Shown here: positions 3,891-46,280 of the stretch, piece by piece
How the letters are laid out: each line of letters begins with the position of its first letter
Position numbering within the stretch: the stretch's first letter is position 1
From: Pachysolen tannophilus NRRL Y-2460
Lineage: Eukaryota
Direction: 5' to 3'
NCBI GenBank assembly: GCA_001661245.1
Contig: KV454013.1
Coordinates: 1,024,502-1,088,501, forward strand
DNA: 64,000 nucleotides
The notes under the pieces: generated by a model
Databases searched by the model: none
Told to the model about the DNA's origin: nothing
Seen by the model: the letters and a program-made list of their open reading frames with translations, nothing else
Made by a program: the position numbers and the translations under genes

Positions 3891-3928
<38 letters not shown>

Positions 3929-6139: not shown

Positions 6140-6172
<33 letters not shown>

Positions 6173-7215: not shown

Positions 7216-8760
7216 ATGCCAATCAAGAGGATTTCGCAACAAACAGTTAGTTCTTTAAGTTCTATAGCTTCTGTGTTCAATGTAACTTCAGTGGTGAAAG
7301 AATTAATTGATAATTCATTAGACGCTGATTCAAGCCATATTAATATAGAAGTGGATTATGAAACTGGTGGATTAAGGCATTGTCTTGTGAGGGATAACGG
7401 TTGTGGTGTGACGAAATTGGATCGGCCATTAATGTGTTGCAATTGTACTACATCGAAACTATCATCTAATTCTGAAATAACAAAGAAATCTATATTTGCA
7501 AATGTTTCAACATTGGGGTTTAGAGGTGAAGCGTTATTTTTCATTTCTCAATTAATTTCAGTAAGTGATAACAGAAGTGGATCCAGAAGTGGATCTAGAA
7601 ATGGTTCAATGACCATTACCACAAGGACTGCAAAGGATCAGATGGGAGAAATGTGGAGCATCATGGGCCAAGGTTTACCAGATGGTTTACCAAAATCTGT
7701 AGCGGCGGCTATTGGAACGTGTATTACTTTGGAAGGATTATTCAGTAGTTCCGTAGTAAGAAAGAAATTGTTAATGAGGCAATCAAGGAAAACTATAGAA
7801 GATATTAGAAAATTAATAATTAGTTATGCTATGACTTACCCAGAACTAAGATTTACCTTTAAATTGATGGAAGTTAAAACCAACGGAGAAATTTGTATTT
7901 CAAGTCATAACAATAAGAATGGATTAATTATAAACCCATGCAGCTCGCAATTATCGTTATTATCGCAACAGTATCAAATACGAAATCCAAAAAATTCATT
8001 CTTTGAAGGAGAAATAGAAACGGAAACAAAAAATTGTCATAACATCCAAGGTGAAGAGGAAGAAGTCGAGTACAAGTTATCTTATGTACTTCCTTTGATG
8101 AATGGGACTTCCGAGGCTTCATCTAAAAACTCCAACACTTTTCTCGCTGTTAATAATAGGCCTTTAGATTTAAAGTCTTCGGTATTATTCAAAGAAATTA
8201 GGAATATGTTGAATTCAGTTTACGAAAAACTCAATTTACTAAGACCAAATATTTGGATTTTAAATATTATTATATTAAATAATGAAAACTTGGATGTTAA
8301 TATTGAGCCTCTGAAAAATGATGTTTTAATTTTCAAACAAAAGGAATTTTTAAGAATTTTGGAAAATGAATTACATGTTATTGTAGCTAATAATCATGGC
8401 TTAAATTATTCTGATGAATTCTCAAACAGAATTGGCAAAAATAAAATTAAAGAAACTGAAAATGAAGAACTGTTAGACGATTCAAAATATGTTGTTTTTC
8501 GTGGTTCAGATTCGGGTTCAGCAAACTCTTTGAAAGGTCCCAATGATGAATTTGAAATCAGCAATGAAATTGCTGATGATGAAACTTCAAATTTGAATGC
8601 AATTGAGATATCAAATGATCAAGACGGCAAAGATTGGAGTTTTCATACTCATGATTTTTTTTCACAAGAATTAATTGGAAACGGGGATGAAATTCACAGT
8701 GAAGCTAGAGATGGAACCAATGGACTGAACACTGATGATTATATCTTTTATAAAAAATAA
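7216..8760 (+). CDS. MLH2: MutL-family mismatch-repair protein, Mlh2-like; N-terminal GHKL ATPase and transducer part only (apparently truncated by an inversion near 8740)
   Basis: VKELIDNSLDA, DNGCGV, TSK, TLGFRGEAL, VNNRP and DVNIEP(CTG=A)K are MutL motifs. The ORF stops abruptly in the linker. Subfamily assignment is an inference, supported by proximity to SMF3 as in S. cerevisiae. Confidence 0.8.
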   Translation: MPIKRISQQTVSSLSSIASVFNVTSVVKELIDNSLDADSSHINIEVDYETGGLRHCLVRDNGCGVTKLDRPLMCCNCTTSKLSSNSEITKKSIFANVSTLGFRGEALFFISQLISVSDNRSGSRSGSRNGSMTITTRTAKDQMGEMWSIMGQGLPDGLPKSVAAAIGTCITLEGLFSSSVVRKKLLMRQSRKTIEDIRKLIISYAMTYPELRFTFKLMEVKTNGEICISSHNNKNGLIINPCSSQLSLLSQQYQIRNPKNSFFEGEIETETKNCHNIQGEEEEVEYKLSYVLPLMNGTSEASSKNSNTFLAVNNRPLDLKSSVLFKEIRNMLNSVYEKLNLLRPNIWILNIIILNNENLDVNIEPLKNDVLIFKQKEFLRILENELHVIVANNHGLNYSDEFSNRIGKNKIKETENEELLDDSKYVVFRGSDSGSANSLKGPNDEFEISNEIADDETSNLNAIEISNDQDGKDWSFHTHDFFSQELIGNGDEIHSEARDGTNGLNTDDYIFYKK

Positions 8761-8985
8761 TAAACTCTTCACCTAGTCGAAATCTAAGCTTGGTTTGAAT
8801 TTCTTCTCTTTCTTCTTTTTCTTTTTCTTTTTTTTTTTTTTGCCAGATTTGAAGTCGCCGTTGCACGACATTTGGCGGATCAAGAGAACTATGACCAACT
8901 ACGATGAGCTACGATGAACTGAAGCAATCTACGAAGGAAGTGGAATAGATAATGGTGAAAGATGAAAAGTGGAGCTATAGTATAT

Positions 8986-9723
8986 TCAGTGAAGATGCAT
9001 GTGAGTGATTCCTCCTTTCTTCTTTTCGAAAATGAAATCTTGCTTACTGTATGTAATATCGGTAATAGTGCTGTTTCCAGAAACTAGACTTTTATAGTTT
9101 TCAATAACCCAATTTGATATACTCTCATTTACTGGATTTTTTTCCTGTCCCAACCATGCTTCTTCCTGTTGGAAAACGCAAAGAGTTTTCTTTGTAATCT
9201 CATTTTCCTTGAGGGCTAAAAGTGTGGTTGCCAAGTTAAATGTGTTTTCTGAAAACTTATCCAAGGGAAATTGATTATAATCAGAATTGGCAATATTCAG
9301 GCCAATATTTGTACCAATATTTGTACTAATATTTGAAGTGATTGAGTTTGAATTTTCTTTTTTGTAAAATGGTCTATGAGAAGTTTTTTTATTCTTTGAT
9401 TTTGCAACATTATTTTTTGTTATAGATTTGGGCCTGCCATTCAAAACATTTCTCCAAGACTTGTTGAATAAAGTATCATCATTGAGGTTCACCTCGTTTA
9501 ATATCTCTATATCGTCATCCTGACCTTCAGAATCAACCGTAGTCGACTCTTCATTATGATTATGAGTACTGAAAATACTAGTGTTTGGTGTTGTTAATAT
9601 TGCTGATAAATTATCTTCATCTACTACTCTTCTATTTGATTTCAAAAGTGCAAATGGATTCGATAAGGAAATATCATTAGCAATTGTTAAGTCTTCATGT
9701 TCCGGAGATGATAAGCTGGTATA
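8986..9723 (-). pseudogene. Displaced C-terminal third of the MLH2-like gene, on the opposite strand (no start ATG of its own)
   Basis: The open frame YTSLSSPEHEDLTIANDISLSNPFALLKSNRR...HMHLH* has no initiating ATG (the track start is TTG 9645). It joins in frame to codon 508 of the 7216 ORF if ~8740-9723 is reverse-complemented. Confidence 0.65.
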
Positions 9724-9734
9724 TTTGAGCTTGA

Positions 9735-12700
9735 ATGGATTATTTTGGGTGAGTGAATTGATTTTTGCAAGTTTTGATTTTATATTTTTTTTTTAGCGAG
9801 GAGAGGAATACTAACATATAGATTGATTATTGGTGAAATTATAGTGTTCCTTATGGCACTATACGTGCTAAAGCATTGGATAAATTGACAACGTTATCGG
9901 TATCTAAATCACAGTTTATCAATAATGAGGATGATTCTTTGAAAAGAATTGCTTCTGTCATTACTGTGGCAAAGCAATCGGAGATATCATCGGTTCCGGT
10001 TGCTTTTAAGGAAGTTCAAATTTTATTAGGGTTAAGTAAATGTTGTTCAACAGTTGAAGATTACGAAAAAGCGGATTTAATATTTCGTAAAATAATACCA
10101 TATTTTTTGGAAATACCGAATCATCAAGAGTTTACAAATGCTTCAATATTGAGGTTAGAACCAAATCCGTGGAATTTGTTGACAAAAAATTTGACTAATG
10201 GAATAATTGAATTAAGTGCCAAATTTCCAAAAATTTCATCTGAAACCATTGATTTATTCTTGAGCTTTTTATCACAATTTGATCCTTCCAATAGAAGTGA
10301 ATATAAATTTTTCAATTTTTTCTCCTTATGTGGTTTCTTGGAGGCCATTACTGAGAATCCAAAAATTTTCAAACAAAGTACTGGTAGTAAAATTTTAGAA
10401 TCTGTGATTTCACTTTTTAGTGACGATTTTTTGAATATTATAGAACAAACTTCAGAACATGAATCTGCTGTATTATCTGTACAATTTACAGATTTAGTCC
10501 AAAGAATAATTATCAGTTATTATGGTGTATTAGTGAACTGTGATAAAGAAAACTTGAGTGAATTTTTGTTGGAGCAAACTGCAAGGAAAATTGATAGAAT
10601 ACGGGATGAAAACAATGATATTATCGAGGATGGATCGATATTAACTGAAAATATCGAACTTAGTGACAAACAGATTGGATTAATAACAAAATTAACAAAC
10701 TTTAGTTTATCTCAAATTGAATCTATAGAAGAAGGTGCACAGTACATATCTTTATCAACAGACTCTCGTCTCTATATGGTTTATTGTACAAAAGCTCATG
10801 CTTTACAGTCACTCAGTTTTAGTTTCCACATGAATATATTACCATTCAATGATGAAAGATTATCAAATATATTGTTCAACAGTTTTTCTCACCCACATGG
10901 GTTGAAAAATCATCTTTTATGTTCTACATTAGTTTCAGTTGCATCATTATTATGCTTTAAAGATCCTGTAAATGCTGGAGAAATGTTATCAAGATTTTAT
11001 CCCTTATTAATCGTCTCTCCAGATTTACAGGAAAATATTGCTAAAGATACCGCCAAATCATTGGCATTAGGTTCAAAAGCCTTACCTCAAGAAAACGTTA
11101 TAAGTACAGTGTATTCACTTATTAATTTAATCACCGTAAATCAAGATGGTACACCAACAAAGCCAATTTTAAAATCATCAGGTACTCATGTTTCAGTTTA
11201 TACTCCACCTCAAACACATAGCTCAAATCATCCTTCTAACGGCAATGCATTCACTAATGGACTTAGATCTTATACAATCAACTCCGCCATTTCAATTAAT
11301 GATTATATTCCACCACAGACCGAGTCTGATTTAATTGCCGTTTGTATTCATATTTTTAAAAATGTTGTAAATGCTTGTTCTCAACTTGTGCGTTATTATG
11401 ATAATGACAATATTACAGCTTTGGTCATCACTTTGCTATCTCAAAAAATGAACCAATCTCTTTTAGTTCCTTTGTTAGTTGACGGTTTAGCAAAGTGTGC
11501 TCCATATTCTCAAGAAAGACAATTTAAAATTTTGATGAGACTTTATCGTGATTTGGCCAATCAATCATTCCCAAAGAAAAAACCAGAAATATTGACTGCT
11601 GTTACTAATGCTAGAATATTGATTTCAAAATTGCTTGGTGATGATCATCCGTTGTACCAAGTTTATCTTCATGAGTTATTAACAGGTATCATAAGCAAAG
11701 GTGATGTGCAAAAGGATGAACATCATAGGTCTCATTCAGAAATTTCTCGTGTCGCCACTGAAATTTCTCAATTCTTGAAACCATTAGCACATTTATTACC
11801 AGATGTTTCTGATCCTTCGAAGGACTTCTCAAGTGACCTTCCAACAGTTGAATATTTTAAGAATGTTTGGTATAATATGGTTGTTCATGGATACTCATTG
11901 AACTCTGAATTGAAAGCTCAGTATTCTGATGAACTAGAAAGAATTGCCCACAGTTCTCCTCCATTAGCTTCAGAATCATCCTGGAATAGAACAGAAACTT
12001 CTTTAGAACTTAATTCAGTGCTACGTCGTGGCTCTTCAAGCCATAATATTAGGCATCAAAAAGAATTTGTAGATGATATTTGTGATACAAACCTTATTCA
12101 AATTCATGCCATTTCAACAGCAAAGGTTATGTTTTTAGCCGCAGCAGTTTTCTTGGAGAGCTTAAGGGTTAAAAGCGGTAATTGTTCAACGGCTTTAATT
12201 TATTTCTCCGATCCTAGTATTAAAATATCACAAGTTGAAGAATATATTGGCTCCTTAGCTGTTAAAATCACTTCAAAATTTGTAGATTTAATAGCTTACG
12301 GAGGAAATAATGCTTATTCTATTGAAAACATTGCTATTGAATTAAAAAAAATGTTAGTTTTATGTTGTCACAGAGAGAAAGATTTACAAGCTTCTGCTTT
12401 CCAATGTTGTGAGATTCTAATCAGTCGTATCCCATCATCACTTTGCCATCATAAAAGTTTGTTTACTATGCTAGATATATTAACATTATTATTTCAAAGT
12501 ATTGTTGATGCAGATGCAGATGAATACGAGCCACGCTTTACATTTAGATTGAAGAACTCAGATACAACAATTACTGTATCAGATTCTTTAAAATGGAGGA
12601 AGAAAACTTTTCAAAAATTTTATGAAAAAGCTAGAAAATGGGTTAGATTAAGTTTGTTGAGATGTAACCAAGATATGAAGTCCCTTTTGCAATCTTATAT

Positions 12701-15503
12701 TTCAACTGTCGATAAATTCAAGAGAGTAAGCCAAGTTGAGTTGGGTATCTCCTTTGCACTTGAAATGGCTGGAACAATTTTACCAAGTGATAAGGAGTTA
12801 TCGAACATTCCGCAGCTGAGTAACGTAAACACTGTTTCTGGATTTTTATCACAATTTAGTTGGACTAGTAGCTTTAAAAATGATATTATTGAAAAGCTTA
12901 CTTCGCATAGCGTACCAGACGCTGAAAGGCTTTCAAGAGGTATACGTTCACAACTATTGTTAATCAAGGATAAGTTAGCCAATCATGAAAAAGTGTCAGA
13001 AGCTGCATTCATTAGTTCTTTGGAGGATTCAACTGAATTAGTTATTTTATCGTCTAAAAATAATGCTGAGCTAGTCCGTCTCCTAGTTCATATTCCTTTT
13101 GCAATCTTTACTTCCGACTCAATGAAAGTGGGTGTTGGTCTTTGGTTAACTCTTATCAAGGAAAAACCAGGTCTATCTTCGTTTTTGTTATCTCACATTG
13201 CTGCAGAGTGGGAAGTTTCAATAAGACAGCGCAAAGGTTTATTTTCGAATAAGTTTGATCTTGCTAAGCCTGAATTTTGCTATATGAAATATTTGCCAAG
13301 TGATAAGAATGCTATTAATCATTCGTCCCATATTGCCATAGAATACTTAGAGCCCCATCTGCAATTAATCCATATGTTACAATCACATTTTCAAGCCACT
13401 ATGTATCAGAGTGACCATTTGCTAAAAATTTTCACTAGAATTGTTTTAGTCGGATTGAGGAATTTTCTGACAGCAAGTTTACATCCTTTTTCAAGATTAG
13501 TGAGATTTGAGTTGATTAAGTTATCCATTGACATATTGAACGTTCACATCAAATTAGGTTCTAGGTATAATTATGTACTTATGAAAAATATTTTATTAGC
13601 AAGTTTGAGTTGGTTCAAGAGAAGAGGTTCATTTCCATACGGTGGTAATCAAATCAGGACAAAAACAGATTACGATTTACTTCAAGAAATTCTGAGTTCT
13701 GTATCTAATATGAGGCCGCCTAATTCATTGGTAGATTCCAAGTTGTTATTGTTAACTTTTCTTCATGATGAGTTAAATAATATCGCATGCTGGTTGAATC
13801 CTCTTGATCCTCTGGAAGCTGAAGGTATACACTCAAAGTTTGGTTTTGATGAAAAATTATTGACTGCTGCTTACAAATTAGATCCATTATTGGCTATTAA
13901 TTTTACGTTGCGCTTTAAAACGAAATCATTGAATGAAGGACTAAGACGTTTACTTTTGGAAGATCCAATCAGCTCCATAAATTACCCAGATGCTATCCAA
14001 TATTTGGTAAGTCCTGAGACTAAAAGTATTAACATGTATCAACTTCTCTTTTGGAAGCCCTCATCTGTTATTGATTGTATCAATTTATTATTACTATTTT
14101 CATCCAACCCTTATATCATCCAATATAGCTTTAGATCGTTGGAAATTCACGACGTTAACTTGACATTTTTCTATGTTCCTCAAATAGTTCAGGCTTTAAG
14201 ATATGATTCAAATGGTTATGTTGAAAGGTTTATTTTAGAGACTGCAAAAGTGTCACAGCTTTTTGCTCACCAAATCATTTGGAATATGAAAGCCAACAGT
14301 TATAAAGATGATGAGGCAACTATTCCTGATACGTTAAAGCCAGCATTAGATCGTATTCTCAAAAGTATGTTAAGCTCTTTTGACAAAGAAGATCTACAGT
14401 TTTTCAAAAGAGAATTTTCATTTTTTGAAGATATAACTGGTATTTCAGGAAAGTTGAAGCCATATATTAAAAAAACTAAAGCAGAGAAGAAGGCTAAAAT
14501 TGATGAAGAAATGGCTAAAATTGTTATCCAGCCAGACGTCTATTTACCTAGTAATCCTGATGGTGTTATAGTAAATATCAATCGTCAATCAGGAAAACCG
14601 TTACAATCTCACGCCAAAGCTCCATTTATGGCAAGCTTTAAGATACGTAAAGAAGTTCATCGAATTGAGGAAGATGATGATCTCGAACAGCCTCTGAAAT
14701 GCGAACCAGAATATGAAGAGACATGGCTTGGAGCAATTTTTAAAGTTGGTGATGATTGTAGACAGGACGTTTTGGCTTTACAGTTGATATCTGTATTTCG
14801 AACTATTTGGGAGAACTCTGGCTTAGATTTGTTTGTATTCCCATATCGTGTTACAGCAACAGCCCCAGGATGTGGTGTCATTGATGTTTTGCCTAATTCG
14901 ATTTCTCGTGACATGTTAGGACGGGAAGCCGTCAACGGATTATATCAATATTTTATAACACGATTTGGTCCAGAAACTTCTATTGAATTTCAAGAAGCTA
15001 GGAATAACTTTGTCAAATCCTTAGCAGCCTATTCTGTGATTTCATATCTATTGCAATTTAAAGATCGTCACAATGGTAATATCATGTATGACGATAAAGG
15101 TCACATTTTACATATTGATTTTGGTTTTTGCTTTGATATTGTTCCTGGAGGGGTCAAATTTGAGCAGTCACCATTTAAATTAACAAGAGAAATGATTGAT
15201 GTGCTTGGTGGAGGAAGAGACACCCAGGCCTTTCGTTGGTTTGAAGAATTATGTGTCAAAGGGTTTTTAGCTGCTAGACCTTATATGGAGATTATTGTTA
15301 GATGTACAATTCCAATGTTGGATAGTGGATTACCATGCTTTAAACCTTCAACTATTAAAAATTTAAGAAGTAGATTTATTCCTAACAAATCCGAGAAAGA
15401 GGCAGCTCGTCATATGAAACGTTTGATCAACAAATCTTATGAGAGTCTTGCTACCAAAGGTTATGATGAATTTCAACGTCTTACCAATGGTATTCCCTAC
15501 TGA
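9735..15503 (+). CDS. STT4: Phosphatidylinositol 4-kinase type III-alpha Stt4; exons 9735-9748 and 9845-15503
   Basis: The spliced N-terminus reads MDYFGVPYGTIRAKALDKL. The C-terminal PI4K domain has FFYVPQIVQALRYD, LQSHAKAPF, FKVGDDCRQDVLALQ, KDRHNGNI, HIDFGF and FQRLTNGIPY. Confidence 0.96.
9749..9844 (+). other. Spliceosomal intron of STT4 (96 nt)
   Basis: 5' GTGAGT at 9749, branch point TACTAAC at 9809-9815, 3' TAG ending at 9844. Splicing joins ATG 9735 in frame to the long ORF. Confidence 0.9.
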
Positions 15504-15912
15504 ATTGATCCGTAAAGTATTTTAATTAAAAATTTTTTTAGCTTTTTTCTATTTTTGCTCTTTACATTTAATAAAACTTAGTAATTCCTATCTGAACATA
15601 TATTAAAGAATTTAAAACATTATTTCACAAGATTTCTTGAATTAACTATAAATCCATCTAAGAAGATGTACAAGAGTCAAATAAAATAGAAAAAAGACAC
15701 TTCAAAAATAAATAAACTAAAAAAAAAAAGATTAAATCAAAAATATTAGACAAAAAATTAGTTGAGCTTCCATGAACCTTGAAATACCCATTTCCCTCCC
15801 AAAAAAAAGTTAAACCAATTTACCAGATTAAATATTAAAACAAGAAAAAAATCAAATGTCAAATTATAGCCTTGAGCTTTAAATTACAATTCTTCAAGTG
15901 CACTTGAAGTCA

Positions 15913-18003: not shown

Positions 18004-18533
18004 TTCTATATTTATCGCAAATAAAATTTGAGCTTTATTACCGTCTTATCTTTGGGGGGCTTTGAATCTTTTTACTTCTTTCTATGATCTTTTAATAATC
18101 TTGGGTGCCGTTGCAAGAAACTAACAATTTGAGAGATGGATAGGGACTTTATTTTCAAACAAAGAACCTCTTTAATTTCCACTCTAACAAATTATTTGAA
18201 AAGAAACCAAAAAAACTGAAAACCTTTTTCTTTAAAAAAAATTTTTCACTAAGATACCAGTTCTTCTTTAAACCTTTTTTACACTTGATCCTTAGACCAG
18301 TTCTAATTCACCAAAGCAATGGAAACACAACAATCGAGCACTATTTGCTTTGAAGAAAAGTTCAAAAATAAAAAAAAGAACTGGGATTCAAAATTAATAT
18401 AATCAAAAGCAAAAAAGGAATAAGATTTAGGATAAAGAAATCTTCCTCAACACCTACACATGTCTTCCATATCCATGAAAAGTAGGTAGAAAATCGTTTC
18501 ATTCAACTTTATGCACCTAAGAATCCAATATCA

Positions 18534-18595
18534 TTACCTCTTTAGGAAATATGTAAACAAGACTTATATAAAAGTTATATATCCTCTTTAGGAAA
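18534..18595. promoter_or_regulatory. Mcm1-forkhead (CLB2-cluster) element upstream of ACE2, with a second Mcm1 site
   Basis: TTACCTCTTTAGGAAA at 18534-18549 is followed by GTAAACAA at 18553-18560. CCTCTTTAGGAAA is repeated at 18583-18595. Confidence 0.7.
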
Positions 18596-18680
18596 CATTA
18601 GGTATATGTACACTACGATATAAACTCACTTCTTGCAGCCATTGTAATGCTCAATCTAGTAAGCGAAGGCAAGCGGTCAA

Positions 18681-18720
18681 GTCTAGTCTAGTCTAGTCTA
18701 AGTCTAAGGCTAGTCTAGTC
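18681..18720. repeat. Degenerate (GTCTA)n pentanucleotide repeat
   Basis: gtctagtctagtctagtctaagtctaaggctagtctagtc. The same unit occurs at ~779-810. Confidence 0.75.
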
Positions 18721-18786
18721 TTTTGATGTATTTCTTTAATAGCTTTTATTACCGAATTTTACATCTATCTATTTACACCGAACAAT

Positions 18787-22803: not shown

Positions 22804-23091
22804 CCTCTCTTAATACCAATCAACCTGAAAGCTAGAAACAATCCTCCAACTGATTTCGTACGTTTATTTATATTTATATATATATATATAATGATATCAA
22901 GTTTTATATATTTGTTTCATATATTTAACTAATTAAATGTTTGAATCGTGTTTACCTTTTTTTCATCACCCAAAAAAAAAATTAAAAAAAAAAATTTCAA
23001 CTTTTCCGTCTTTTTACAACTTCTACAACTGTTACAATTGAAAAGAGTATTTGTAGTATTATATTATGGCAGGCACTATGAAATGGAGTCT

Positions 23092-30931: not shown

Positions 30932-31788
30932 AATCAACTATAGTTTGTATATATTACCTCTTTATTCAATCCTCTGTAAATTTTATTTTATTTTAAAAAA
31001 AAAAATAATTCTCTTGTTAGTAATCATGTAACGGCGTTTAATCAAACAAAACAAATCAAACTTACAATCATATAAATCCACCACCTTACACTAGGCCAAA
31101 ATAAAAATTGTTTCTTACAATCAGCTAATAAGCAACTTCTTCTTAGCAATTTACACTCTTTGAATTATCCACTCAAACAATTTCTTCTTGTTCTTGTTCT
31201 TGTTCTACTTCTTCTATTATTATTATTGTTTTTTTTTTTGATTTAAAACTCAATTAGGTCTAGTATTAAAAAAAAAGGTACTTTTGTTTTGTTGTGATTT
31301 TTCCCTAAGTTTCCTACTTGTTTTAAAGAGAGAAAAAAAAATTTTTTGTTTTTTTTCCTCTCTTTTGTTTACGTCTCGGTATTTAAAGAAAAATTTCGCG
31401 TTGTAAAAAAAGATGTTTTTTTTTTGGCGTTTTTTTTTTCTTTTTTTTTCTTTTTTTACGTTTTCTCCGGTGTGTTTGCGGGAGAAGGCGGGAAGGAGGG
31501 CGGAAGGATAGTCATCGGCCCAGGGTTACTGGGCGGGATTAATGATGATTGAAACCTAACAATATCAATTACCATGCTCATATTGAGTTTTCTATCAAAC
31601 GTATAATTGATTTAATGATTTTATATTTATACACAAAACTAAAATAAAATAAAATAAACGAAAAGCTATAAAAAAAAACGATGAAAACTTATGACAAATT
31701 CGATTATCCAAAACTTCTCAAAAACAAAAAATAAAAAAAAAAATAAACAGTAATAGTTACAGATAAATAAAAAGAGTATATAAATAAA

Positions 31789-37700: not shown

Positions 37701-38211
37701 CTAATATAGCAGAATCATGTGGAACTTTTCTCCAACCTAATACTCTTAAACCTAAAGATTTTGCAATATTTTCAAAAGTAATTTTTGATTTTTCAAAAAC
37801 AATTTCATCATTTTTGAAAAAAACATTACCAACAGCATATTGACCTAACATAGGTATTTGAATTTTACATAAATATTCAAATTCTCTTTGCATAAATTTA
37901 TGAGGAATAGAAGTCATTACCCCTGCACCATCTCCATCTCTTGCATCTGATCCCACAGCACCTCTATGGGTCATATTACATAACAAGAAACCAGCATCAG
38001 AAACAATCTTATGAGAAACGCTTCCCTTTATATGACATGCAAAACCAACACCACAAGCATCTTTTTCTAGATCTGGATTATATAAACCTTTGGCCGTTGG
38101 AATAGAAGATGCCCATGACTTATTACTTGGAACTTCATCATAATCATAAACTGAATACTCTTCCTTCTCTTGCTGCTTCTCTTGCTGTTGCTGTTGCTGT
38201 TGCTGAACCAT
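31789..38211 (-). CDS. GLT1: NADH-dependent glutamate synthase (GOGAT), fused large and small subunits
   Basis: 2140 aa. EKDACGVGF (Ntn Cys), HSRFSTNTFP, KMAQGAKPGEGG, CIMMRKCHLNSCPVG, RCMDCGVPFC, GSGPAG and AGDCRRGQSLVVW. Confidence 0.99.
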   Translation of the reverse strand: MVQQQQQQQQEKQQEKEEYSVYDYDEVPSNKSWASSIPTAKGLYNPDLEKDACGVGFACHIKGSVSHKIVSDAGFLLCNMTHRGAVGSDARDGDGAGVMTSIPHKFMQREFEYLCKIQIPMLGQYAVGNVFFKNDEIVFEKSKITFENIAKSLGLRVLGWRKVPHDSAILGPASLSREPLILQPLVVLEEAYGNGNKPREDITMEVFEDKYEKHFERQLFILRKQSTHTIGLHNWFYICSLSNKNIVYKGQLVPAQVYNYYHDLVNSEYEAHFALVHSRFSTNTFPSWDRAQPLRWAAHNGEINTLRGNKNWMRAREGVMASKLFGDELDKLYPIIEEGGSDSAALDNVLELLVINGVLSLPEAIMVLVPEAWQNNPNIDLKRRAFYEWAACLSEPWDGPALFTFADGRYCGANLDRNGLRPCRYYITDDDRIICASEVGVIPHIEPERIVKKGRLHPGRMLLVDTKEGRIVDDRELKNKVASRVDFKSWILANLITMPELFTKLSSKGLGYEELKPVLDPNVSVETDSRLPAFGYSHEQLLLILGPMAVDGKEALGSMGNDTALACLSEQPKILYEYFRELFAQVTNPPIDPIREAIVMSLECYIGPQGNILEMKPDQCNRLLMPSPVLSIEEFKALGNISKVYPKWTVATIDITFRKSEGLAGYAETIDRICEEATEAIAENRQIITLTDRAVCADRVAISALMAIGAVHHHLVRQKLRSKVALIVETAEAREVHHICCLVGYGADAVNPYLVMETLIRLNHEGLIRKDMTDQQIIENYKHSIDGGILKIMSKMGISTLASYKGAQIFEALGIDNSVIDKCFAGTASRIKGVTFEYIAQDAFSLHERGYPTRETIKEIGLPETGEYHWRDGGEAHINEPAAIANIQDAVRNKNEKAYDAYAKKEYEAIKNCTLRGLLDFDYENSIPVPIDQVEPWTEIVRRFATGGMSYGSISMEAHSTLAVAMNRLGGKSNTGEGGEDQERSTFNSNGDTMRSAIKQVASGRFGVTSWYLSDADELQIKMAQGAKPGEGGELPAHKVSKSIAKTRHSTPGVGLISPPPHHDIYSIEDLKQLIYDLKCANPRARVSVKLVSEVGVGIIASGVAKAKADHILISGHDGGTGAARWSGIKYAGLPWELGLAETHQTLVLNDLRGRVAVQTDGNLRTGRDIAIACLLGAEEFCLATLPLISLGCIMMRKCHLNSCPVGIATQDPELRKKFEGTPEHVINLFYYISNELRQIMAQLGFRTIDEMVGRAEKLKVNENLRTTKNANIDLSPILTPAHTIRPGVATRCIKKQDHRLHVRLDNKLVDEAEVTLEKGLPVTIDCDIINTDRALGATLSYRVSKKFGEQGLPHDTVHVNVRGSAGQSFGAFLAPGITLELTGDSNDYFGKSLSGGRLIVYPPKDSKFKAEENIIIGNTCLYGATSGSAFIRGIAAERFCVRNSGATAVVEGCGDHGCEYMTGGRVVVLGTTGRNFAAGMSGGIAYVLDMGQEFDTKVNSEMVELSRLTDPVEIAFLRGLIEDHHHYTASELASRILNDFNRILPRFVKVLPIDYKRVLEEEKKLKEEAKKKEISVFYKSIKEDPEADITNGEILRSKKGKLVVSAKDAEKEPKVLDLEDTIVDVKAEGKKVETLDKVRGFMKYKRRSEKYRPAKERAKDWAELSQRLTKDELKYQTARCMDCGVPFCTSDSGCPISNVIPKWNELIFKDRWFDALQRLLMTNNFPEFTGRICPAPCEGACVLGINEDPVGIKSVEAAIIDHAFEQGWIKPIAPKLRTGKTIAVIGSGPAGLACADQLNKAGHKVTVYERADRPGGLLMYGIPNMKLDKRVVKRRTDLMELEGIDFICSTTVGEDITVEELKSDNDAVVFSVGSTIPRDLRIPGRQLSNIMFAMQLLKSNTQALLDDHLPEIREQLEGKHVIVIGGGDTGNDCLGTATRHGAKSVINFELLPHPPATRAKDNPWPQWPRIFRVDYGHSEVAAHYGKDPREYCILSKEFVDDGNGNVKGINTVRVEWKKSESGAWQMAEVPGSEEFFPADIVLLSMGFVGPEAENLEVVRTKRGTISTSNPNGYRVTADDNLFAAGDCRRGQSLVVWGIQEGRQCAREVDTYLLGSSRLPGNGAIEKRNFKLLEELALQA

Positions 38212-39424
38212 TATTCAGTGAGATCCAATAATATTAAGTACCCAACAATAATTACGTTAATAAATACACTACGCTAAATAATTATATATGTATATGACTA
38301 ACAACAACAGAGATAGTAGCTTTATTAGCACTAGTAGCGGTAGTAAATAAATAAAATAGGTATTTTTGATTTTATATATAAACTGAAAAAAAAAAGGAAA
38401 AAGGAAGAAGAAAAAGAAAATAAAACTTAATATAAGATTGATTGATTTATTATATTAAATTATTGAATAAATTAATTATTTATTTATTTAGTGGATAAAT
38501 TTTTTCTTTTTGGACACTTATGAAAGGTAGGTAAAAAGGAGGGGTTCTTACACATATAACAAACATCAACTTAGTTTTAAAAAGAATACTTTCTCGCTTT
38601 ATTTGTTTGTTTCCGGTACGACGGCCTATAAGTTTTTAACTTTTTACATTTACATTTACATTTACAAGTACATTTTCATGCGTTGCGCCGCCCTGGAACC
38701 CTCATATCTCCCACGCTTGATCAGTGGTCTAATCTCGTATCGCGGGCCAATAAAAGATTTTTAATTATTAAACACTACTACTAATTGTAAATAGTATGAT
38801 ATATATAGTACAATAATAGTATGTTATGGTATGCCGGATTCGGGCCTGAATCCGAATGAAAAAAAAAGAAAAAAAAAAAAAAACAAACCTGCACCACTCA
38901 CACCACTTGCTTTTTTTGTACGCCACTCTTACTTGCCACTCATTCTACTCTCGCCACTAACTTAATTTGAGGTATTTGGTATTTGAGCTTAACCAACCTT
39001 TGCACCACATGTATAACAGAACATAACAAGCACCGCTCATAATTGACACGTGATGCACTTTTTCAAATTTCAAAATTTTCTATCTGTCACTCAGCTCACT
39101 CACTACTACTACCAACCATCACCACCAAAGAAAAGAGAGAAGAAGGAAAAACCCTGCATAATCTATACTACAACGTTATAAATAAAAGATGAAAAATTTT
39201 ACGCTTCTATGGTAAAAATATGCTACCAAAAGGTGATGGCAAGAATATATATATATTACTATATAATTTAAATTTTTTTAAGTGATGACAAAACCAAAAA
39301 CTAACCAAGAAAAATTTTTTTTTNTTTTTTTTTTTTTTTTTTCTTTTAACAGCGGCAAGAAAAAAGAAAAGAAAAAGAAAAAAAAAAAAACACAGCACAA
39401 AAATTATATGGTAGTGCACGTTTG

Positions 39425-39450
39425 TCCGTATATATATATATATATACGGA
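39425..39450. repeat. Perfect 26-bp palindrome TCCG(TA)9CGGA
   Basis: tccgtatatatatatatatatacgga read directly. Confidence 0.85.
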
Positions 39451-40214
39451 AACAAAGCTATTTGTTTTATATATATTAATATATTATTATATATATATAA
39501 TATACATATATATATATGTATATAAATCAAAAAAAATATAAAATTTTCTCTTTTTCCTTTTTTTGTTTTTCATTATCAGTTTGATTAAAACAAAAATCGA
39601 AATAGAAATTTTATTTGGTTTGTAATAGAAATAATATTAATTATTTTCTATTTCTAACTCAAACATAGCAAAAGAAAGAAAGAAAGAGAAAAAAAAATAA
39701 GGAAAAAAATTTTTTTTTTCTTGTTAACTTCTTATTATACAATAGTAGGAGGGAGAACTTTTCGAAATATTCTTTTCTTTTGTTTGTTTTTTTGGAGGTA
39801 TTAAGTTATCGTTCAAAGTCAGTTTCTTATCAATACTTTTACCGCTACTTAAACTCACAAGGTTTTGTGTGTTTTTTATTATCGATTAAGTAATAATATT
39901 ATTGTTTTGATTATTTTATCAGCGATATAAGAGAAGAGCAAAAATATAACCAGTCAAGTTTTATGTTATTCATTTTGATTGATTGATTGATTGATTGACA
40001 TATAATATTGATAATTAACCAAAGACAAAAGCTTTTTTTCCTAAAGAAAAAACAAGAAAAAAAAAGAAAAAAAGAAAAACTTTTTAAACAAGGCAAATAC
40101 AAGAGAAGGAAAAATCGAGCTTTTAATTAAGTCATCGGTTTATTAGTATATTTTCATAAAAACGAGTTCACTCTTTTTTCACTCTTTTTTTTTCATATAA
40201 AGGTTTGTTTAGAA

Positions 40215-41660
40215 ATGTCGGTTTATCCACAAGATTACTATTCAAATAATTTTCAAAACGGTGCTTACCCGTTACCGCTGCTGCACCAGCAACAGCACCA
40301 GCATCAACACGCACGTCAGTATTCTTCGTACCATCCAACGCAGTATCAACATCCACTTTCTGCGCCTTTTATTCAACAGCACCAGGGGAACTATCCCACT
40401 GCAGCCAATACTGCTAATCACACTGCCAATGCTGCTGCTTCTGCTGCTGCCACTGCACCTTATTTTCTGCCACCACTGGCATCAAACAACTGTGGCTACT
40501 TGGGCACTGGGTTTAACACCGCTGGTACATCTACAACAGCTGTTTCTGCTGTTTCTACCGCTCCATCGTTCCATAGTTTTCAATTGCAGCCTCCGCCAAT
40601 GCTGCCTGCTGCTCATGCTCAGCAGCCACAGCCACAGCCACAGCAACAACAGCAACAACAGCAACAACAGGAGAACCTGCAACAGGAAGATCAGCCTGTT
40701 GTCACTGGTGGGGTTTCAGCAATACTTGATTACGATATGGATCAAATTACAAAATTTTTAACTTTACTCAGTATAAACATGTTGAAACAAGATCAAATGG
40801 ATTCAACAAGTTTAGAGATAAAATTGAAAAATGTGTTGAAGGCAACAAGATTATTAAGATCCACTATATTATTAGCAATTATTTATCTTTCAAACAAGAT
40901 CGAAAGTGATAACAGTAACAGTTGCAATAATACAGAAGACGTTTTCACAAACGTTATCATGTCGTTGTTAATTTCAAATAAATTCAATGATGATTCAACT
41001 TTTACAAATAAATCATGGTCACAAGCAAGTGGATTAAATTTAAATATAATTAATAAATTGGAAATAAAATATTTACAAAAATTGAATTATAACTTGCAAA
41101 TTAAAAATGATGCATCAATCAATAGTATTGAAACATCATACAAGAACTGGAGTTTAAATGGTATCCAGAAGACAGAGGCTACTACCAAGAGCAATGGCAA
41201 TGCTCAACTGCAACAGTTATCATCGTTGCCAATGCCATCAAATAATCCTGCCACTGCTTTTTACCCATCTCCGATTTTAGAAGATGGTTTTCCTCCATCT
41301 TCTCCTCCATACGTTACTTATCCATATGGCAACCCAGATGTTTATAGTACTCCTCCACTTCAAGGATCGGGATTTTATGATTACACTGGCCAAACTACTC
41401 CTTACATGACTTCATCTCCATCAGTTGTCACCAACACTAGTGGTAACAGCAATGGCAGCGATAATACGTTTGCCGGCTATTACCAGCAACCGATTCAAGA
41501 TAATACAAGGTATTCTCAGCAGCTGCAACAGCTGCAACAACTGCAACAACAACAACAACAACAACAGGCTGCTGCCGCAGCTGCTATGGCTGGTGGGTAT
41601 TATTCTACTTACCCTGGATTAAGGGATCATTATTATTATTCGCACATTCCGTGCTACTGA
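40215..41660 (+). CDS. CLG1: Pho85-type cyclin-like protein Clg1
   Basis: GGVSAILDYDMDQ, ATRL.RSTILLAIIYL and SNKFNDDSTFTNKSWSQASGL...INKLE...L..LNYNL form the cyclin box. Flanks are rich in Q, A and Y. Confidence 0.85.
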   Translation: MSVYPQDYYSNNFQNGAYPLPLLHQQQHQHQHARQYSSYHPTQYQHPLSAPFIQQHQGNYPTAANTANHTANAAASAAATAPYFLPPLASNNCGYLGTGFNTAGTSTTAVSAVSTAPSFHSFQLQPPPMLPAAHAQQPQPQPQQQQQQQQQQENLQQEDQPVVTGGVSAILDYDMDQITKFLTLLSINMLKQDQMDSTSLEIKLKNVLKATRLLRSTILLAIIYLSNKIESDNSNSCNNTEDVFTNVIMSLLISNKFNDDSTFTNKSWSQASGLNLNIINKLEIKYLQKLNYNLQIKNDASINSIETSYKNWSLNGIQKTEATTKSNGNAQLQQLSSLPMPSNNPATAFYPSPILEDGFPPSSPPYVTYPYGNPDVYSTPPLQGSGFYDYTGQTTPYMTSSPSVVTNTSGNSNGSDNTFAGYYQQPIQDNTRYSQQLQQLQQLQQQQQQQQAAAAAAMAGGYYSTYPGLRDHYYYSHIPCY

Positions 41661-42261
41661 GGGTTTTTTAAAAAAAAAGAAAAAGTAACAGGTGTGTTAC
41701 TTAAAGAGTGGTGGTTATTTTTTGTGTTTTGTGTTCTTTTTTTTTTTTTTTTTCGTATTTTATTTTATTTTATTTTACTGTTTGATTTTCGTGTGTTAAT
41801 TGCGTTGTCTCCGGTACTTGGTACTATTTGTTAGTTTTTTTATTTTTTATTCAATTTTATTTTCATTTCGTGTGCTTTTTTTTTTTTTTTTTTTTTTTAA
41901 ATTATTTCTATAAAAAAAAAAATTATTGAAAATGCAAAAAACAAAAAAAATAAAAAATAAAAAAAAAAGAGATTAAAAATTGAAATCATATTAAAAAAAA
42001 AAAAAAAAAAAATATGTAGGGAAAGAAAGTTATTTACTCCTTTTCCTAATCAAGAGTCTTTAATGTATATTCATATAAAGTTCTTATTATCAGAGAGATG
42101 CTAGTGTTAAGTTTCTAAATTGCTTGAAAGTGTATACGACGAAAATAGAAAAAGAAAAAAAAAAGGAAGAAGAAAAGAAAGAGAATAAAACAATGATTTA
42201 GCTATTATTTTATTTTTGTTCTTTCTCTATTTTTCCTAATTGTTTTTTTTTTTTTTTTTTT

Positions 42262-42868
42262 NNNNNNNNNNNNNNNNNNNNNNNNNNNNNNNNNNNNNNN
42301 NNNNNNNNNNNNNNNNNNNNNNNNNNNNNNNNNNNNNNNNNNNNNNNNNNNNNNNNNNNNNNNNNNNNNNNNNNNNNNNNNNNNNNNNNNNNNNNNNNNN
42401 NNNNNNNNNNNNNNNNNNNNNNNNNNNNNNNNNNNNNNNNNNNNNNNNNNNNNNNNNNNNNNNNNNNNNNNNNNNNNNNNNNNNNNNNNNNNNNNNNNNN
42501 NNNNNNNNNNNNNNNNNNNNNNNNNNNNNNNNNNNNNNNNNNNNNNNNNNNNNNNNNNNNNNNNNNNNNNNNNNNNNNNNNNNNNNNNNNNNNNNNNNNN
42601 NNNNNNNNNNNNNNNNNNNNNNNNNNNNNNNNNNNNNNNNNNNNNNNNNNNNNNNNNNNNNNNNNNNNNNNNNNNNNNNNNNNNNNNNNNNNNNNNNNNN
42701 NNNNNNNNNNNNNNNNNNNNNNNNNNNNNNNNNNNNNNNNNNNNNNNNNNNNNNNNNNNNNNNNNNNNNNNNNNNNNNNNNNNNNNNNNNNNNNNNNNNN
42801 NNNNNNNNNNNNNNNNNNNNNNNNNNNNNNNNNNNNNNNNNNNNNNNNNNNNNNNNNNNNNNNNNNNN
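42262..42868. other. Assembly gap (607 N) flanked by poly-T tracts
   Basis: Run of N in the sequence. Confidence 0.99.
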
Positions 42869-43329
42869 TTTTTTATTTTATTTTTNTTTTTTTTTTTTAT
42901 ATTTGAAATTGAATTATTCAACTGAGAGATGGGTGATTTTTTTTAACTTACGAAGCAATTAATAAGTAAATAAGTAATTGATCTTGCTTGATTTTTTTTT
43001 TTTTTTCTTAATTACCGAGTTTTTTGTATTGTAGTTTTATTATCTGCATAATCAGTAATCAGTCGTGCTAGATCATACAAACTGTCTCTTTTTAGAAATG
43101 CGGCAGTTTTTGTTTTTTTTTTCAGAGTCTCGGTCTTTTCCACCATCATACTAAAGCCTATAAAACGGCGACGTTACTACATGTATGCACCTAAAATAGG
43201 TGGTTCAAATTGTCTTGTAGCGATAACTAACTATAGATTAACTTCTATATTCCGTATTGGAAAAATTTCATCGGGGCATTAGAATTTTTTTTTTTTTTGC
43301 TTATTACTTATTAGTTATTACCTTGAGCA

Positions 43330-43368
43330 TTGAAAATTGAGAATTGAAAATTGAAAATTGAAAATTGA
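43330..43368. repeat. 7-bp tandem repeat (TTGAAAA)n
   Basis: ttgaaaattgagaattgaaaattgaaaattgaaaattga. Confidence 0.8.
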
Positions 43369-44053
43369 GTAATGGCAATCGCCGATTGTACTTGAGAAGG
43401 AAAGAAACGAAAAAAACAAGACAAACTGCAAATATGGCTCAATATTTATTTATGTCCTCATGAGTTTATTTCAAAGTACGGATTTATCCTGGTTTTTTAC
43501 TTTTTTATTTTTTCTCTCGTCTATATACTAATTTAAAACTTAATCAAGATTTTATTGCGGTTGCAGATCTAAGATATCTTAAACCCACTCCCATTTTAGC
43601 GATGAGATGACATTAGCCAATAATAAGATACGTACCTACCTACTAAAAGAAGATTTACAATGTTAGGTCTGATGATATCACGTACAACAACAACAAAAAG
43701 AAAGAAAAAGAAAGCAAAAAAAAAAAGAGGTATCATCCTATCTATCTGTTATCTTTAAAGGACGTAATTGTTTTAAAAAATCTTTATAGTAATAACAATA
43801 GCAATGTTCCTGACATTTTGTTAATATGGAAATGCAAAAAAAAAAAAAAAAAAAAAACTCTATTAAGGCTTCTACGCCGATTAATTTAAAGACCTTTTAA
43901 CCCCAAATTCATCTCCATTTCCCTTTTATTTTTTATTTTTTTATTATCTTTTTGCTTTTTGCTTTTTATTACAGTTTTAGTTTAAAATGCGGTGAAAGCC
44001 TTTTAATATTTTACTGCATTTTAGGATTCCACCGAATCAAAAAAAATTTTCTT

Positions 44054-44240
44054 GATAACGCACATAATATTCGCGTGCTGCTAAAAAANAAAAAAAAAAG
44101 CTAAATAGTGTTGTAACAGTCATAAAGATAATACTAACTTTATAGGTACTTTTGCTGACTTGCAGCTATAGCAAAAAGCCGCTATCGATAAATGTAACTA
44201 TCATGCATAAGAGATGATAATGTCTGTTATTTTGTTATCA
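44054..44240. promoter_or_regulatory. Cluster of GATAA/TTATC elements (putative nitrogen-catabolite GATA-factor sites)
   Basis: GATAA at 44054, 44127, 44187 and 44216, and TTATC at 44235, all upstream of a purine permease. Confidence 0.45.
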
Positions 44241-44549
44241 TCATGTAGAATTTTGATTGTTAATTGTCTTTTCTTTTTTTTTTTTTTTTTTTTTTTTTTG
44301 ATCTTAATTTATTTTAAATAGGAAAAAGAAAAGAGAGAGAACCGAAAGGTAAAATAAATAGATCAGAGAGAGTAAGTTATAAAATAGATCAAATCCTCTC
44401 TGCAAAGTGAATTAAAAAATATTCATTCTGTATTAATTTTTTTTTTTCATTCAATTTTACCTTTTTCTTTTTCTGATTAATTTTCATAATATATTCAGTT
44501 AGAGAAACTATTAAGAGTTTTTTTTTGCTTTTAAATATTTTTAATAGTA

Positions 44550-46280
44550 ATGGTTGAACAAATTGGACAAGTTGCCTCGGATAAGGCTAGACATATTCTC
44601 CATAAATGGACTACTAAAGAAGGTATATTTGGTGATTATGATTATAAGTACCTTTTCACACCAACTTTACCATTTATTAAAAAGACAAGAACAGTTCAAC
44701 CTTTTTTCGGGTTGAATTCCGAGATGCCATTATTTTTAGGGTTTTTATTAGGTTTTCAACATGCTTTAGCGATGTTAGCAGGTGTTGTATCTCCACCTTT
44801 AATTATATCTGCTGCTGCAAATCTTTCTGAAGAACATGAACAATATTTGGTTAGTTGTTCTTTAATTGTTTCAGGTATATTATCAGCAATTCAAATTACT
44901 AGGTTTCATATTCCAAAAACACCTTATTATATTGGTACTGGATTAGTTTCTGTTGTTGGTACTTCATTTGCTACAATTACAATTACTGGTAAAGCGTTCC
45001 CATTGATGTACCTGAATGGAGAATGTCCAGTTAGTTCTGATGGTACAGAACTTGCTTGTCCCGATGGATATGGTGGAATTTTAGCTACTGGTTGTGTTTG
45101 TGCTTTATTAGAAATTGCATTATCCTTTTTACCTCCAGCTGTTTTACAAAAAGTTTTCCCACCTTTAGTTACTGGGCCTGTTGTATTATTAATTGGTATT
45201 TCATTAGTTGAAAGTGGATTTGAAGATTGGTTAGGTGGTTCTGGTTGTATTGATTCTATATGTCCAGATTCAAGTGCACCTCATCCATTAGAATATGGAT
45301 CAGCATCTTTTATTGGTTTAGGTTTTTTAGTTTTTTTCGTTATTATTCTTTGTGAAAAATGGGGGTCACCAATAATGAAATCATGTGCTGTTATTGTTGG
45401 ATTATTAGTTGGTTGTATTGTTGCTGCTGCATGTAATTATTTTGAAAGTTCAGGAATTAGTTCTGCGCCAGTTGCTACATTCATGTGGGTTCATACTTTT
45501 AAATTAAAAGTTTATGGACCTGCAGTTTTACCTATGTTAGCATTGTATATAGTTTTAATGATGGAAGCTATTGGTGATATTACTGCAACTTCTGATGTTT
45601 CAAGAGTAGAAGTTGAAGGTCCATTATATGAATCAAGAATCCAAGGTGGTGTTCTTGCAGATGGTTTCAATGGATTATTATCTTGTTTAATGACATGTAC
45701 ACCAATGTCAACATTTGCTCAAAATAATGGTGTTATTTCAATTACTAAATGTGCTAATAGAACTGCTGGTTATTGGTGTTGTTTCTTCTTAATAGTAATG
45801 GGGATTTTCAGTAAATTTGCTGCTGCATTAGTGGCAATTCCAAAAGCAGTCTTGGGTGGAATGACAAGTTTTTTATTTACATCTGTTGCAGTTTCTGGAT
45901 TACGTATTATTTCAACTGTAGAATTTACAAGAAGAGATAGATTTGTATTTACTGCATCATTAGTCATTGGTTTAGGTGCTACCTTGATTACAGATTGGTT
46001 TGATGGAGTTTTCACATATGATGGATCTAATAATGGGTTAAAAGGTTTTTATGATGCAATAATCTTGGTATGTGAAACAGGTTTTGCAATTACAGGTTTA
46101 ATAGGTGTAATTTTAAATTTATTCATTCCACAAGAATCAGAAGAAGATGACGTTGCTGGTGGCATCATTGAAGAACATATCATGTCTGAAGGACCTGTGG
46201 AAGTTATTGGTGAATCAACTGTATCAACAACAAAATCTTTCCATGATAGTGATAATAAAGATGCAGAAAAAGTTGCCTAA
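44550..46280 (+). CDS. NAT/NCS2-family xanthine/uric acid permease (UapA/UapC/Xut1-like)
   Basis: GFQHALAML (TM1 QH), VVGTSF, FPPLVTGPVV, EAIGDITATSDVS, IQGGVLADG and the NAT signature FAQNNGVISITKCANRTAG. Confidence 0.95.
   Translation: MVEQIGQVASDKARHILHKWTTKEGIFGDYDYKYLFTPTLPFIKKTRTVQPFFGLNSEMPLFLGFLLGFQHALAMLAGVVSPPLIISAAANLSEEHEQYLVSCSLIVSGILSAIQITRFHIPKTPYYIGTGLVSVVGTSFATITITGKAFPLMYLNGECPVSSDGTELACPDGYGGILATGCVCALLEIALSFLPPAVLQKVFPPLVTGPVVLLIGISLVESGFEDWLGGSGCIDSICPDSSAPHPLEYGSASFIGLGFLVFFVIILCEKWGSPIMKSCAVIVGLLVGCIVAAACNYFESSGISSAPVATFMWVHTFKLKVYGPAVLPMLALYIVLMMEAIGDITATSDVSRVEVEGPLYESRIQGGVLADGFNGLLSCLMTCTPMSTFAQNNGVISITKCANRTAGYWCCFFLIVMGIFSKFAAALVAIPKAVLGGMTSFLFTSVAVSGLRIISTVEFTRRDRFVFTASLVIGLGATLITDWFDGVFTYDGSNNGLKGFYDAIILVCETGFAITGLIGVILNLFIPQESEEDDVAGGIIEEHIMSEGPVEVIGESTVSTTKSFHDSDNKDAEKVA

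What the first reader, a model, noticed from the sequence alone, without database searches (positions are those of the whole stretch)
8311..45014. Non-standard genetic code: CUG is decoded as alanine
In-frame CTG codons sit where homologues have Ala. Examples: MutL DVNIEP[CTG]K (8311-8313; EPAK); MATE ELAAVSL[CTG]SMT (24361-24363, minus; Erc1 SLASMT); Hsl1 NIM[CTG]LYDVW (30395-30397, minus; S. cerevisiae NVMALFEVW); Glt1 ME[CTG]EGIDF (32686-32688, minus; AEGIDF); purine permease MY[CTG]NG.CP (45012-45014; MYANG). Ala fits these columns better than Leu or Ser. CUG=Ala (translation table 26) is established for Pachysolen tannophilus and relatives such as Nakazawaea and Peterozyma. It is rare but not new. 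It identifies the clade and means all CTG-derived L residues in the ORF track should read A. Homologue residues are recalled from memory.
Basis: partly seen in the sequence, partly recalled or inferred. Interest (0 to 1): 0.7.

Follow-up and report, generated by a model that had tools for sequence, protein, structure and literature searches.

The report
Known yeast CUG-to-alanine genetic code
This stretch of budding-yeast chromosome comes from a genome that almost certainly reads the codon CUG as alanine instead of leucine, a real but already described change of the genetic code.

Summary
All five CTG codons are at the stated positions and in frame. The purine-permease column is weak (Lys 40, Ala 21, Leu 17 of 119). 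Leu is firmly rejected: Pfam scores favour Ala over Leu in 27 of 36 proteins, Leu in 7. Protein data separate Ala from Ser only weakly, and a paralogue test was inconclusive. The tRNA decides it: the genome holds a single 72-nt tRNA-CAG (G000:C6:217831-217902, minus) with G3:U70, A73, a short variable loop and 67-73% identity to its tRNA-Ala genes. No Leu- or Ser-type tRNA-CAG turned up. This is NCBI table 26 of the Alaninales, shown by mass spectrometry in 2016 (PMC4937558). Public records of three window genes already read CTG as Ala, and this scan noted the same code on other DNA of this genome. Real, but already known.

The parts
8311..8313 (+). In-frame CTG, codon 366 of a MutL-family ORF (7216-8760); read as Ala
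   Evidence: column has A in bacterial MutL and T in MLH1
24361..24363 (-). In-frame CTG, codon 232 of a MATE transporter (23092-25056); read as Ala
   Evidence: A 70, G 40, S 23, L 0 of 150 homologues
30395..30397 (-). In-frame CTG, codon 179 of an Hsl1-like kinase (26969-30931); read as Ala
   Evidence: A in PDB 8a3t chain S (HSL1), K in BRSK2 and Snf1
32686..32688 (-). In-frame CTG, codon 1842 of glutamate synthase Glt1 (31789-38211); read as Ala
   Evidence: A 88, D 20, S 2, L 0 of 119 homologues
45012..45014 (+). In-frame CTG, codon 155 of a purine (UapA-like) permease (44550-46280); variable column, weak evidence
   Evidence: K 40, A 21, L 17, S 10 of 119; A in the 5 nearest homologues
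56512..56514 (+).
   Evidence: A 71, P 15, S 12 of 119 homologues, but mixed among the 13 nearest
1..64000 (.). The code applies to all nuclear ORFs of the window: 82 in-frame CTG in 21 ORFs. The decoding tRNA lies outside the window, at G000:C6:217831-217902 minus (L055:1465-1536).

Best explanation
Nuclear genes of this budding yeast read CUG as alanine (NCBI table 26). One intron-less tRNA gene, a tRNA-Ala whose anticodon has changed to CAG, carries the alanine identity marks: G3:U70 in an acceptor stem starting G1-G2-G3-C4, discriminator A73, short variable loop. Alanyl-tRNA synthetase reads the acceptor stem, not the anticodon, so it charges this tRNA with Ala, and the CAG anticodon delivers it to CUG. 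The ancestral tRNA-Leu(CAG) is gone. Shown here: the codons, their avoidance of conserved Leu columns, the tRNA gene and its features. Inferred from the literature: charging by AlaRS and Ala in the peptides. Not shown for this genome: expression of the tRNA and peptide-level decoding.
For: tRNA-CAG, 72 nt, with G1-C72, G2-C71, G3:U70, C4-G69, A73, G37 and no long variable arm; one match to its own sequence in G000. It matches 52 of 73, 54 of 74 and 49 of 73 columns of this genome's tRNA-Ala genes, against 47 of 84 for Leu(TAA) and 39-41 of 82 for Ser; of the 13 tRNAs compared, only the three Ala genes share both G3 and U70. A Leu/Ser-type CAG pattern has 0 matches. Orthologue columns with at least 50% consensus: CTG sits in 3 Ala, 2 Pro, 1 Met, 0 Leu, 0 Ser of 6, against 296 Leu of 392 for other Leu codons (p=0.0003) and 146 Ser of 246 for Ser codons (p=0.005); compatible with GCN codons, 187 Ala of 234 (p=0.11). 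Pooled column likelihood over 9 CTG columns: A -1.6, P -4.1, S -4.3, L -14.6, with 60 of 60 control codons right. Pfam bit scores: Ala above Leu in 27, below in 7, tied in 2 of 36 proteins, +48.5 bits, sign test p=0.0008. The same tRNA features and 97.2% Ala by LC-MS/MS are reported for Pachysolen (PMC4937558 Results).
Against: Ala versus Ser is not resolved by Pfam scores (17 versus 14, 5 ties, +5.0 bits). The paralogue test (54 CTG columns, controls 59 of 60) ranked I -19.3, S -19.4, L -23.7, A -24.9; Ala won 303 of 2000 bootstraps, and CTG sat in Ala-consensus columns less often than GCN codons do (3 of 16 versus 389 of 633, p=0.001). The tRNA searches are incomplete: the Rfam scan scored 63 of 1003 candidates and missed the CAG tRNA itself. 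Database records reading Ala (P0001, P0121, P0241) reflect the annotators' choice of table and are not independent evidence. No peptide or RNA data were examined.
Confidence: 0.95

Rival explanations
1. CUG is read as serine (table 12; Ser1 or Ser2 clade), and the Ala columns reflect the usual Ala/Ser interchange.
For: Pfam scores do not separate Ser from Ala. Ser ranks above Ala in the paralogue test and wins 754 of 2000 bootstraps. Ser fills 23 of 150 rows of the MATE column.
Against: The only tRNA-CAG found has no long variable arm, has A73 and G3:U70, and is 39-41 of 82 identical to Ser tRNAs. No Ser-type CAG gene by pattern. 0 of 6 conserved orthologue columns and 1 of 16 conserved paralogue columns (p=0.003) are Ser.
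Confidence: 0.02
2. Standard code: CUG is leucine, read by a Leu tRNA or by wobble, and the Ala-type tRNA-CAG is silent.
For: The CAG tRNA keeps A35, G37 and A73, named as yeast Leu identity elements (PMC8629427 passage). G3:U70 also occurs in some true tRNA-Leu(CAG) genes (PMC4937558). A tRNA-Leu(TAG) gene exists. Some CTG columns hold Leu (permease 17 of 119; 2 kinase columns).
Against: CTG avoids conserved Leu columns: 0 of 6 versus 296 of 392 and 2 of 16 versus 765 of 1134 (p=1e-5). Leu lowers Pfam scores in 27 of 36 proteins. The tRNA lacks the long variable arm of Leu tRNAs.
Confidence: 0.01
3. Mixed decoding: mostly Ala, with a real share of Leu from mischarging of the CAG tRNA or from wobble by tRNA-Leu(UAG).
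For: CTG is depleted from strongly conserved columns of any kind in paralogues (1 of 54 sites at 70% consensus or more, against 317 of 1590 for GCN). The tRNA keeps A35/G37/A73.
Against: Published proteomics of a CUG-Ala yeast found 97.2% Ala, with exceptions as rare as for AUG (PMC4937558). The depletion is also expected for a rare codon used in weakly constrained sites. PMC5951914 notes that its LC-MS/MS does not exclude low-level other residues.
Confidence: 0.04

Closest known systems
CUG-Ala nuclear code (NCBI table 26) of Pachysolen tannophilus, with its anticodon-mutated tRNA-Ala(CAG) (PMC4937558)
   Same: Same reassignment; a tRNA-CAG with 5' G1-G2-G3-C4, G3:U70, A73, G37 and no long variable loop; identity to GCN-reading tRNAs (67-73% here) within the published range of 62-77%.
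   Different: No difference found. I could not compare the tRNA letter by letter with the published one (figures are not held, supplements not seen) and did not determine species or strain.
CUG-Ala clade / order Alaninales: Pachysolen, Nakazawaea, Peterozyma (PMC5951914, PMC11182611)
   Same: CUG=Ala is part of the order's formal diagnosis. The best named homologues of Rse1, Glt1 and the permease are from Kuraishia capsulata, a member of the Leu2 clade that PMC5951914 places next to the Ala clade.
   Different: The order's marker family OG0016373, rDNA phylogeny and morphology were not tested.
CUG-Ser1 (Candida, table 12) and CUG-Ser2 (Ascoidea, Saccharomycopsis) codes
   Same: Same codon reassigned by an anticodon-shifted tRNA after or during loss of tRNA-Leu(CAG).
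   Different: Their tRNA-CAG derives from tRNA-Ser and has a long variable arm; most Ser2 species keep a second, Leu-type tRNA-CAG. Neither was found here.

Membership tests
CUG-Ala code (table 26) | A tRNA with CAG anticodon and Ala identity (G3:U70, 5' GGGC, A73) | tested here: met
   G000:C6:217831-217902 minus
CUG-Ala code (table 26) | tRNA-CAG has a short variable loop and is closest to tRNA-Ala genes | tested here: met
   72 nt; 49-54 of 73-74 columns identical to the three Ala genes compared; next best Val 48 of 74, Gln 47 of 72, Leu 47 of 84. Pairwise identity only, no tree.
CUG-Ala code (table 26) | No tRNA-Leu(CAG) or tRNA-Ser(CAG) in the genome | tested here: inconclusive
   0 matches to a Leu/Ser-type CAG pattern and none among the tRNAs read, but the Rfam scan scored 63 of 1003 candidates, I read loci for 50 of those 63, and it missed the CAG tRNA itself
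CUG-Ala code (table 26) | CTG codons do not sit at conserved Leu positions | tested here: met
CUG-Ala code (table 26) | CTG codons prefer Ala over Ser columns | tested here: inconclusive
   Orthologues favour Ala (3 Ala, 0 Ser of 6); Pfam ties; paralogues favour Ser or Ile
CUG-Ala code (table 26) | Peptides carry Ala at CUG (LC-MS/MS) | not testable with these tools
   Published for Pachysolen: 97.2% of 907 fully supported positions (PMC4937558)
Order Alaninales | Order-specific protein family OG0016373 and rDNA/EF-1alpha phylogeny | not tested
   Diagnosis read in PMC11182611; only nearest-homologue names seen here
CUG-Ser codes (Ser1, Ser2) | tRNA-CAG derived from tRNA-Ser, with long variable arm | tested here: not met

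The most novel reading that the evidence does not exclude
CUG is not a clean fifth Ala codon here. Because it lies two or three base changes from GCN but one change from Pro, Met, Gln, Val, Arg and Leu codons, it works mainly as a new one-step mutational route into Ala, and may be decoded with a condition-dependent share of Leu (the tRNA keeps A35, G37, A73). Post hoc support for the first part: 3 of 6 conserved orthologue columns at CTG are Pro or Met, against 11 of 234 one-step-neighbour columns for GCN codons (p=0.003); in paralogues the share is 0.35 versus 0.29 (p=0.04, sites not independent); Gln makes up 10% of CTG's neighbours against 3-4% for Ala, Leu and Ser codons. No evidence here for the Leu share, and published proteomics argues against it. 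The probability given is for real mixed Ala/Leu decoding.
Probability: 0.05. Interest if true: 0.5.

Novelty: already known. Interest (0 to 1): 0.1.

Why it matters
Practical only: every CTG in nuclear ORFs of this genome should be translated as Ala (82 sites in 21 ORFs of the window; 790 of 140,618 codons in a 664-kb sample), and genes moved into or out of this yeast need those codons checked. The biology is striking, as one of three nuclear CUG reassignments in yeasts, but it was published in 2016, has its own NCBI table, names an order, and is already applied in public records of these genes.

Tried and rejected
1) Homology-free context classifier on 228 ORFs from 61 sources (664 kb): it called CTG 'Gln', with Leu above Ser above Ala among the three, but got only 33 of 58 held-out control codons right. 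After removing regional composition it got 5 of 58, and 8 of 15 in the Ala/Leu/Ser choice, misclassifying all four Ala codons. Rejected as a method; its CTG result is not used either way. 2) Paralogue columns (30 kinases, 9 sugar transporters, 24 of 30 fetched DEAD loci, 12 of 19 amino-acid permeases; 54 of 58 CTG scored): inconclusive between Ile, Ser, Leu and Ala; kept as evidence against Leu only. 3) ARAGORN on the window: 0 tRNA genes. 4) Rfam tRNA scan of G000 missed the CAG tRNA; a first CAG pattern gave 3 matches, none a tRNA; a DNA search with tRNA-Ala(AGC) found 6 Ala genes but not the CAG gene. 5) Rse1 alone was weak: 2 of its 6 CTG columns are mostly gaps. 6) Agreement of database records P0001, P0121 and P0241 with table 26 was rejected as proof (circular) and used only to show the code is already applied. 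7) In the Pfam test, 46 CTG-rich ORFs were scanned and 10 with no family at E<=1e-10 were dropped; no control swapping an ordinary Leu codon was run.
Full report
Observation. The window is AT-rich (31.6% G+C) budding-yeast DNA, G000:C3:1024502-1088501 in a 12.6-Mb assembly. All five cited codons are CTG, in frame, at the stated places, in ORFs that Pfam names MutL-like, MatE, protein kinase, glutamate synthase and xanthine/uracil permease. The 21 ORFs examined hold 82 in-frame CTG among 16,139 codons.

The five sites against real homologues. I aligned with X at CTG. The Glt1, permease, Hsl1 and MutL searches also used X; the MATE and Rse1 searches used table 26. Glt1 1842: A 88, D 20, S 2, L 0 of 119. 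MATE 232: A 70, G 40, S 23, L 0 of 150. MutL 366: A in bacterial MutL, T in MLH1. Permease 155: K 40, A 21, L 17, S 10 of 119, with A in the five nearest homologues. So four sites fit and one is weak. Homologues from yeasts with other CUG codes may be mistranslated in the database, which could add Leu or Ser to these columns.

The cited sites are a favourable pick. Other CTG columns in the same alignments are Pro (Glt1 381, 92 of 119; Rse1 283, 103 of 119), Met (Glt1 2114, 94 of 119), Ala (Rse1 675, 71 of 119), mixed, or gapped. Pooled over the 9 scorable columns the likelihoods are A -1.6, P -4.1, S -4.3, L -14.6, and the method called 60 of 60 control codons correctly. Among columns with at least 50% consensus, CTG has 3 Ala, 2 Pro, 1 Met, no Leu and no Ser of 6. 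That differs from other Leu codons (296 of 392 Leu, p=0.0003) and from Ser codons (146 of 246 Ser, p=0.005) and is compatible with GCN codons (187 of 234 Ala, p=0.11).

Wider tests. From 60 stretches of 10 kb elsewhere in G000 I chose 46 CTG-rich ORFs and scanned each against Pfam under tables 26, 12 and 1. Ten had no family and were dropped. In the other 36, Ala beat Leu in 27, lost in 7 and tied in 2 (+48.5 bits, p=0.0008). Ser beat Leu by the same count (+43.5 bits). Ala against Ser was 17 to 14 with 5 ties (+5.0 bits, p=0.72). A paralogue test on four gene families (54 CTG columns, controls 59 of 60) did not favour Ala: I -19.3, S -19.4, L -23.7, A -24.9. It showed CTG avoiding Leu-consensus columns (2 of 16 versus 765 of 1134, p=1e-5), but also Ala-consensus (3 of 16 versus 389 of 633, p=0.001) and Ser-consensus columns (1 of 16 versus 260 of 606, p=0.003). 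The one CTG in a column with 70% consensus or more was in an Ala column. A context-only classifier failed its controls and was discarded. Net result from proteins: Leu is out; Ala over Ser is suggested by orthologues but not established.

The tRNA. The window has none. A pattern built on the 5' half of tRNA-Ala plus a CAG anticodon found 3 matches, one of them a tRNA gene, at G000:C6:217831-217902 minus. It is 72 nt, without intron, scores 57.6 bits against Rfam RF00005, and folds with G1-C72, G2-C71, G3:U70, C4-G69, discriminator A73, G37 and a short variable loop. A DNA search with it finds only itself. It matches the genome's tRNA-Ala genes at 49-54 of 73-74 columns, Leu(TAA) at 47 of 84 and Ser at 39-41 of 82; of 13 tRNAs compared, only the Ala genes share G3 and U70. 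A pattern for Leu- or Ser-type tRNAs with CAG, which by inspection fits the 5' halves of this genome's Leu and Ser tRNAs, found nothing. Absence is not proven, because the Rfam scan scored only 63 of 1003 candidates and missed the CAG gene.

Mechanism. A tRNA-Ala gene copy changed its anticodon to CAG. AlaRS recognises G3:U70 and A73 rather than the anticodon (identity elements as stated in PMC4937558), so the tRNA stays Ala-charged and puts Ala at CUG; the old tRNA-Leu(CAG) was lost. The gene and its features are shown here. Charging, expression and peptide identity are inferred from published work. The order of events is debated: tRNA loss first (PMC4937558) or an ambiguous phase under selection against tRNA-Leu(CAG), possibly by a killer toxin (PMC5951914). 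My data do not bear on that.

Comparison with what is known. PMC4937558 (abstract, Results part 1 of 2, Discussion part 1 of 2) describes this code and a tRNA with the same features, 62-77% identical to GCN-reading tRNAs, and reports Ala at 97.2% of 907 fully supported CUG positions. PMC5951914 (parts 1 and 2 of 5) extends the Ala clade to Nakazawaea and Peterozyma. PMC11182611 (passages) makes CUG=Ala part of the diagnosis of the order Alaninales. PMC8629427 (passages) recovers the known yeast CUG codes with Codetta and lists Leu identity elements. PMC9154068 (passages) was read for the mitochondrial side note. Figures and supplements were not seen, so the tRNA was not compared letter by letter with the published one. 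Database proteins identical to the window's Rse1, Glt1 and permease carry Ala at all 10 CTG positions, so the public annotation already uses table 26. The scan's own notes list 108 entries fitting this topic in this genome; the 8 shown all agree. They were read after my tRNA and orthologue results and are not counted as support.

What remains of possible novelty. CTG sites are enriched in columns whose consensus is one base change from CTG (3 of 6 versus 11 of 234; paralogues 0.35 versus 0.29), and CTG often sits beside Gln (10% of neighbours). This suggests many CTG-Ala sites arise by single changes from Pro, Met or Gln codons. It is post hoc, rests on few sites, and I did not search the literature for it. 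Low-level Leu at CUG is not excluded but is unlikely given the published proteomics.

Verdict. Observation confirmed, interpretation supported at about 95%, already known. Interest 0.1.

Noticed in passing
window 9735-9844 (+): The Stt4-like PI4-kinase ORF is open from 9837 but its first ATG is at 10776. A 14-nt first exon (ATG at 9735), a GTGAGT donor at 9749, a TACTAAC branch site at 9809 and an acceptor ending at 9844 restore the frame, so the gene probably has a 96-nt 5' intron.
   Followed up: partly
L010:1791-1863 (G000:C10, 28-kb mitochondrial-like contig): A 73-nt tRNA with AAG anticodon and no long variable arm. Mitochondrial CTT aligns with Leu or Ile in cytochrome b (3 sites) and Cox2 (1 site), so the organelle seems to keep CUN=Leu. 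PMC9154068 lists code 3 (CUN=Thr, recalled meaning) for the Pachysolen mitochondrion and code 4 for the rest of the clade; these few sites fit code 4.
   Followed up: partly
window 40278-41543 (+) and 48387-48407 (+): CTG clusters in Gln-rich tracts of the cyclin-like ORF (10 CTG) and Ino80 (15 CTG), giving Gln-Ala repeats under table 26. In the genome sample CTG neighbours another CTG in 3.7% of cases against about 0.5% for other codon groups.
   Followed up: partly
window 40213-40758 (+): An alternative frame of 182 codons with 19 CTG overlaps the cyclin-like ORF; probably a by-product of GCT runs, which read as Ala in two frames under table 26.
   Followed up: no
window 1-3134 (-): Two Nramp (Smf-like) metal transporter genes in tandem on the same strand; the first runs off the window edge.
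   Followed up: no
window 7216-8760 (+): The MutL-family ORF is 514 aa and matches only the N-terminal ATPase and middle domains; it looks like a short, divergent MutL paralogue, or it is incomplete.
   Followed up: no
window 42262-42868: Assembly gap of 607 N, plus single N at 39324, 42886 and 44089.
   Followed up: no
L053:98-234 (G000:C8:422116-422249, -): tRNA-Leu(TAG) gene with a 52-nt intron, long for a yeast tRNA intron.
   Followed up: no
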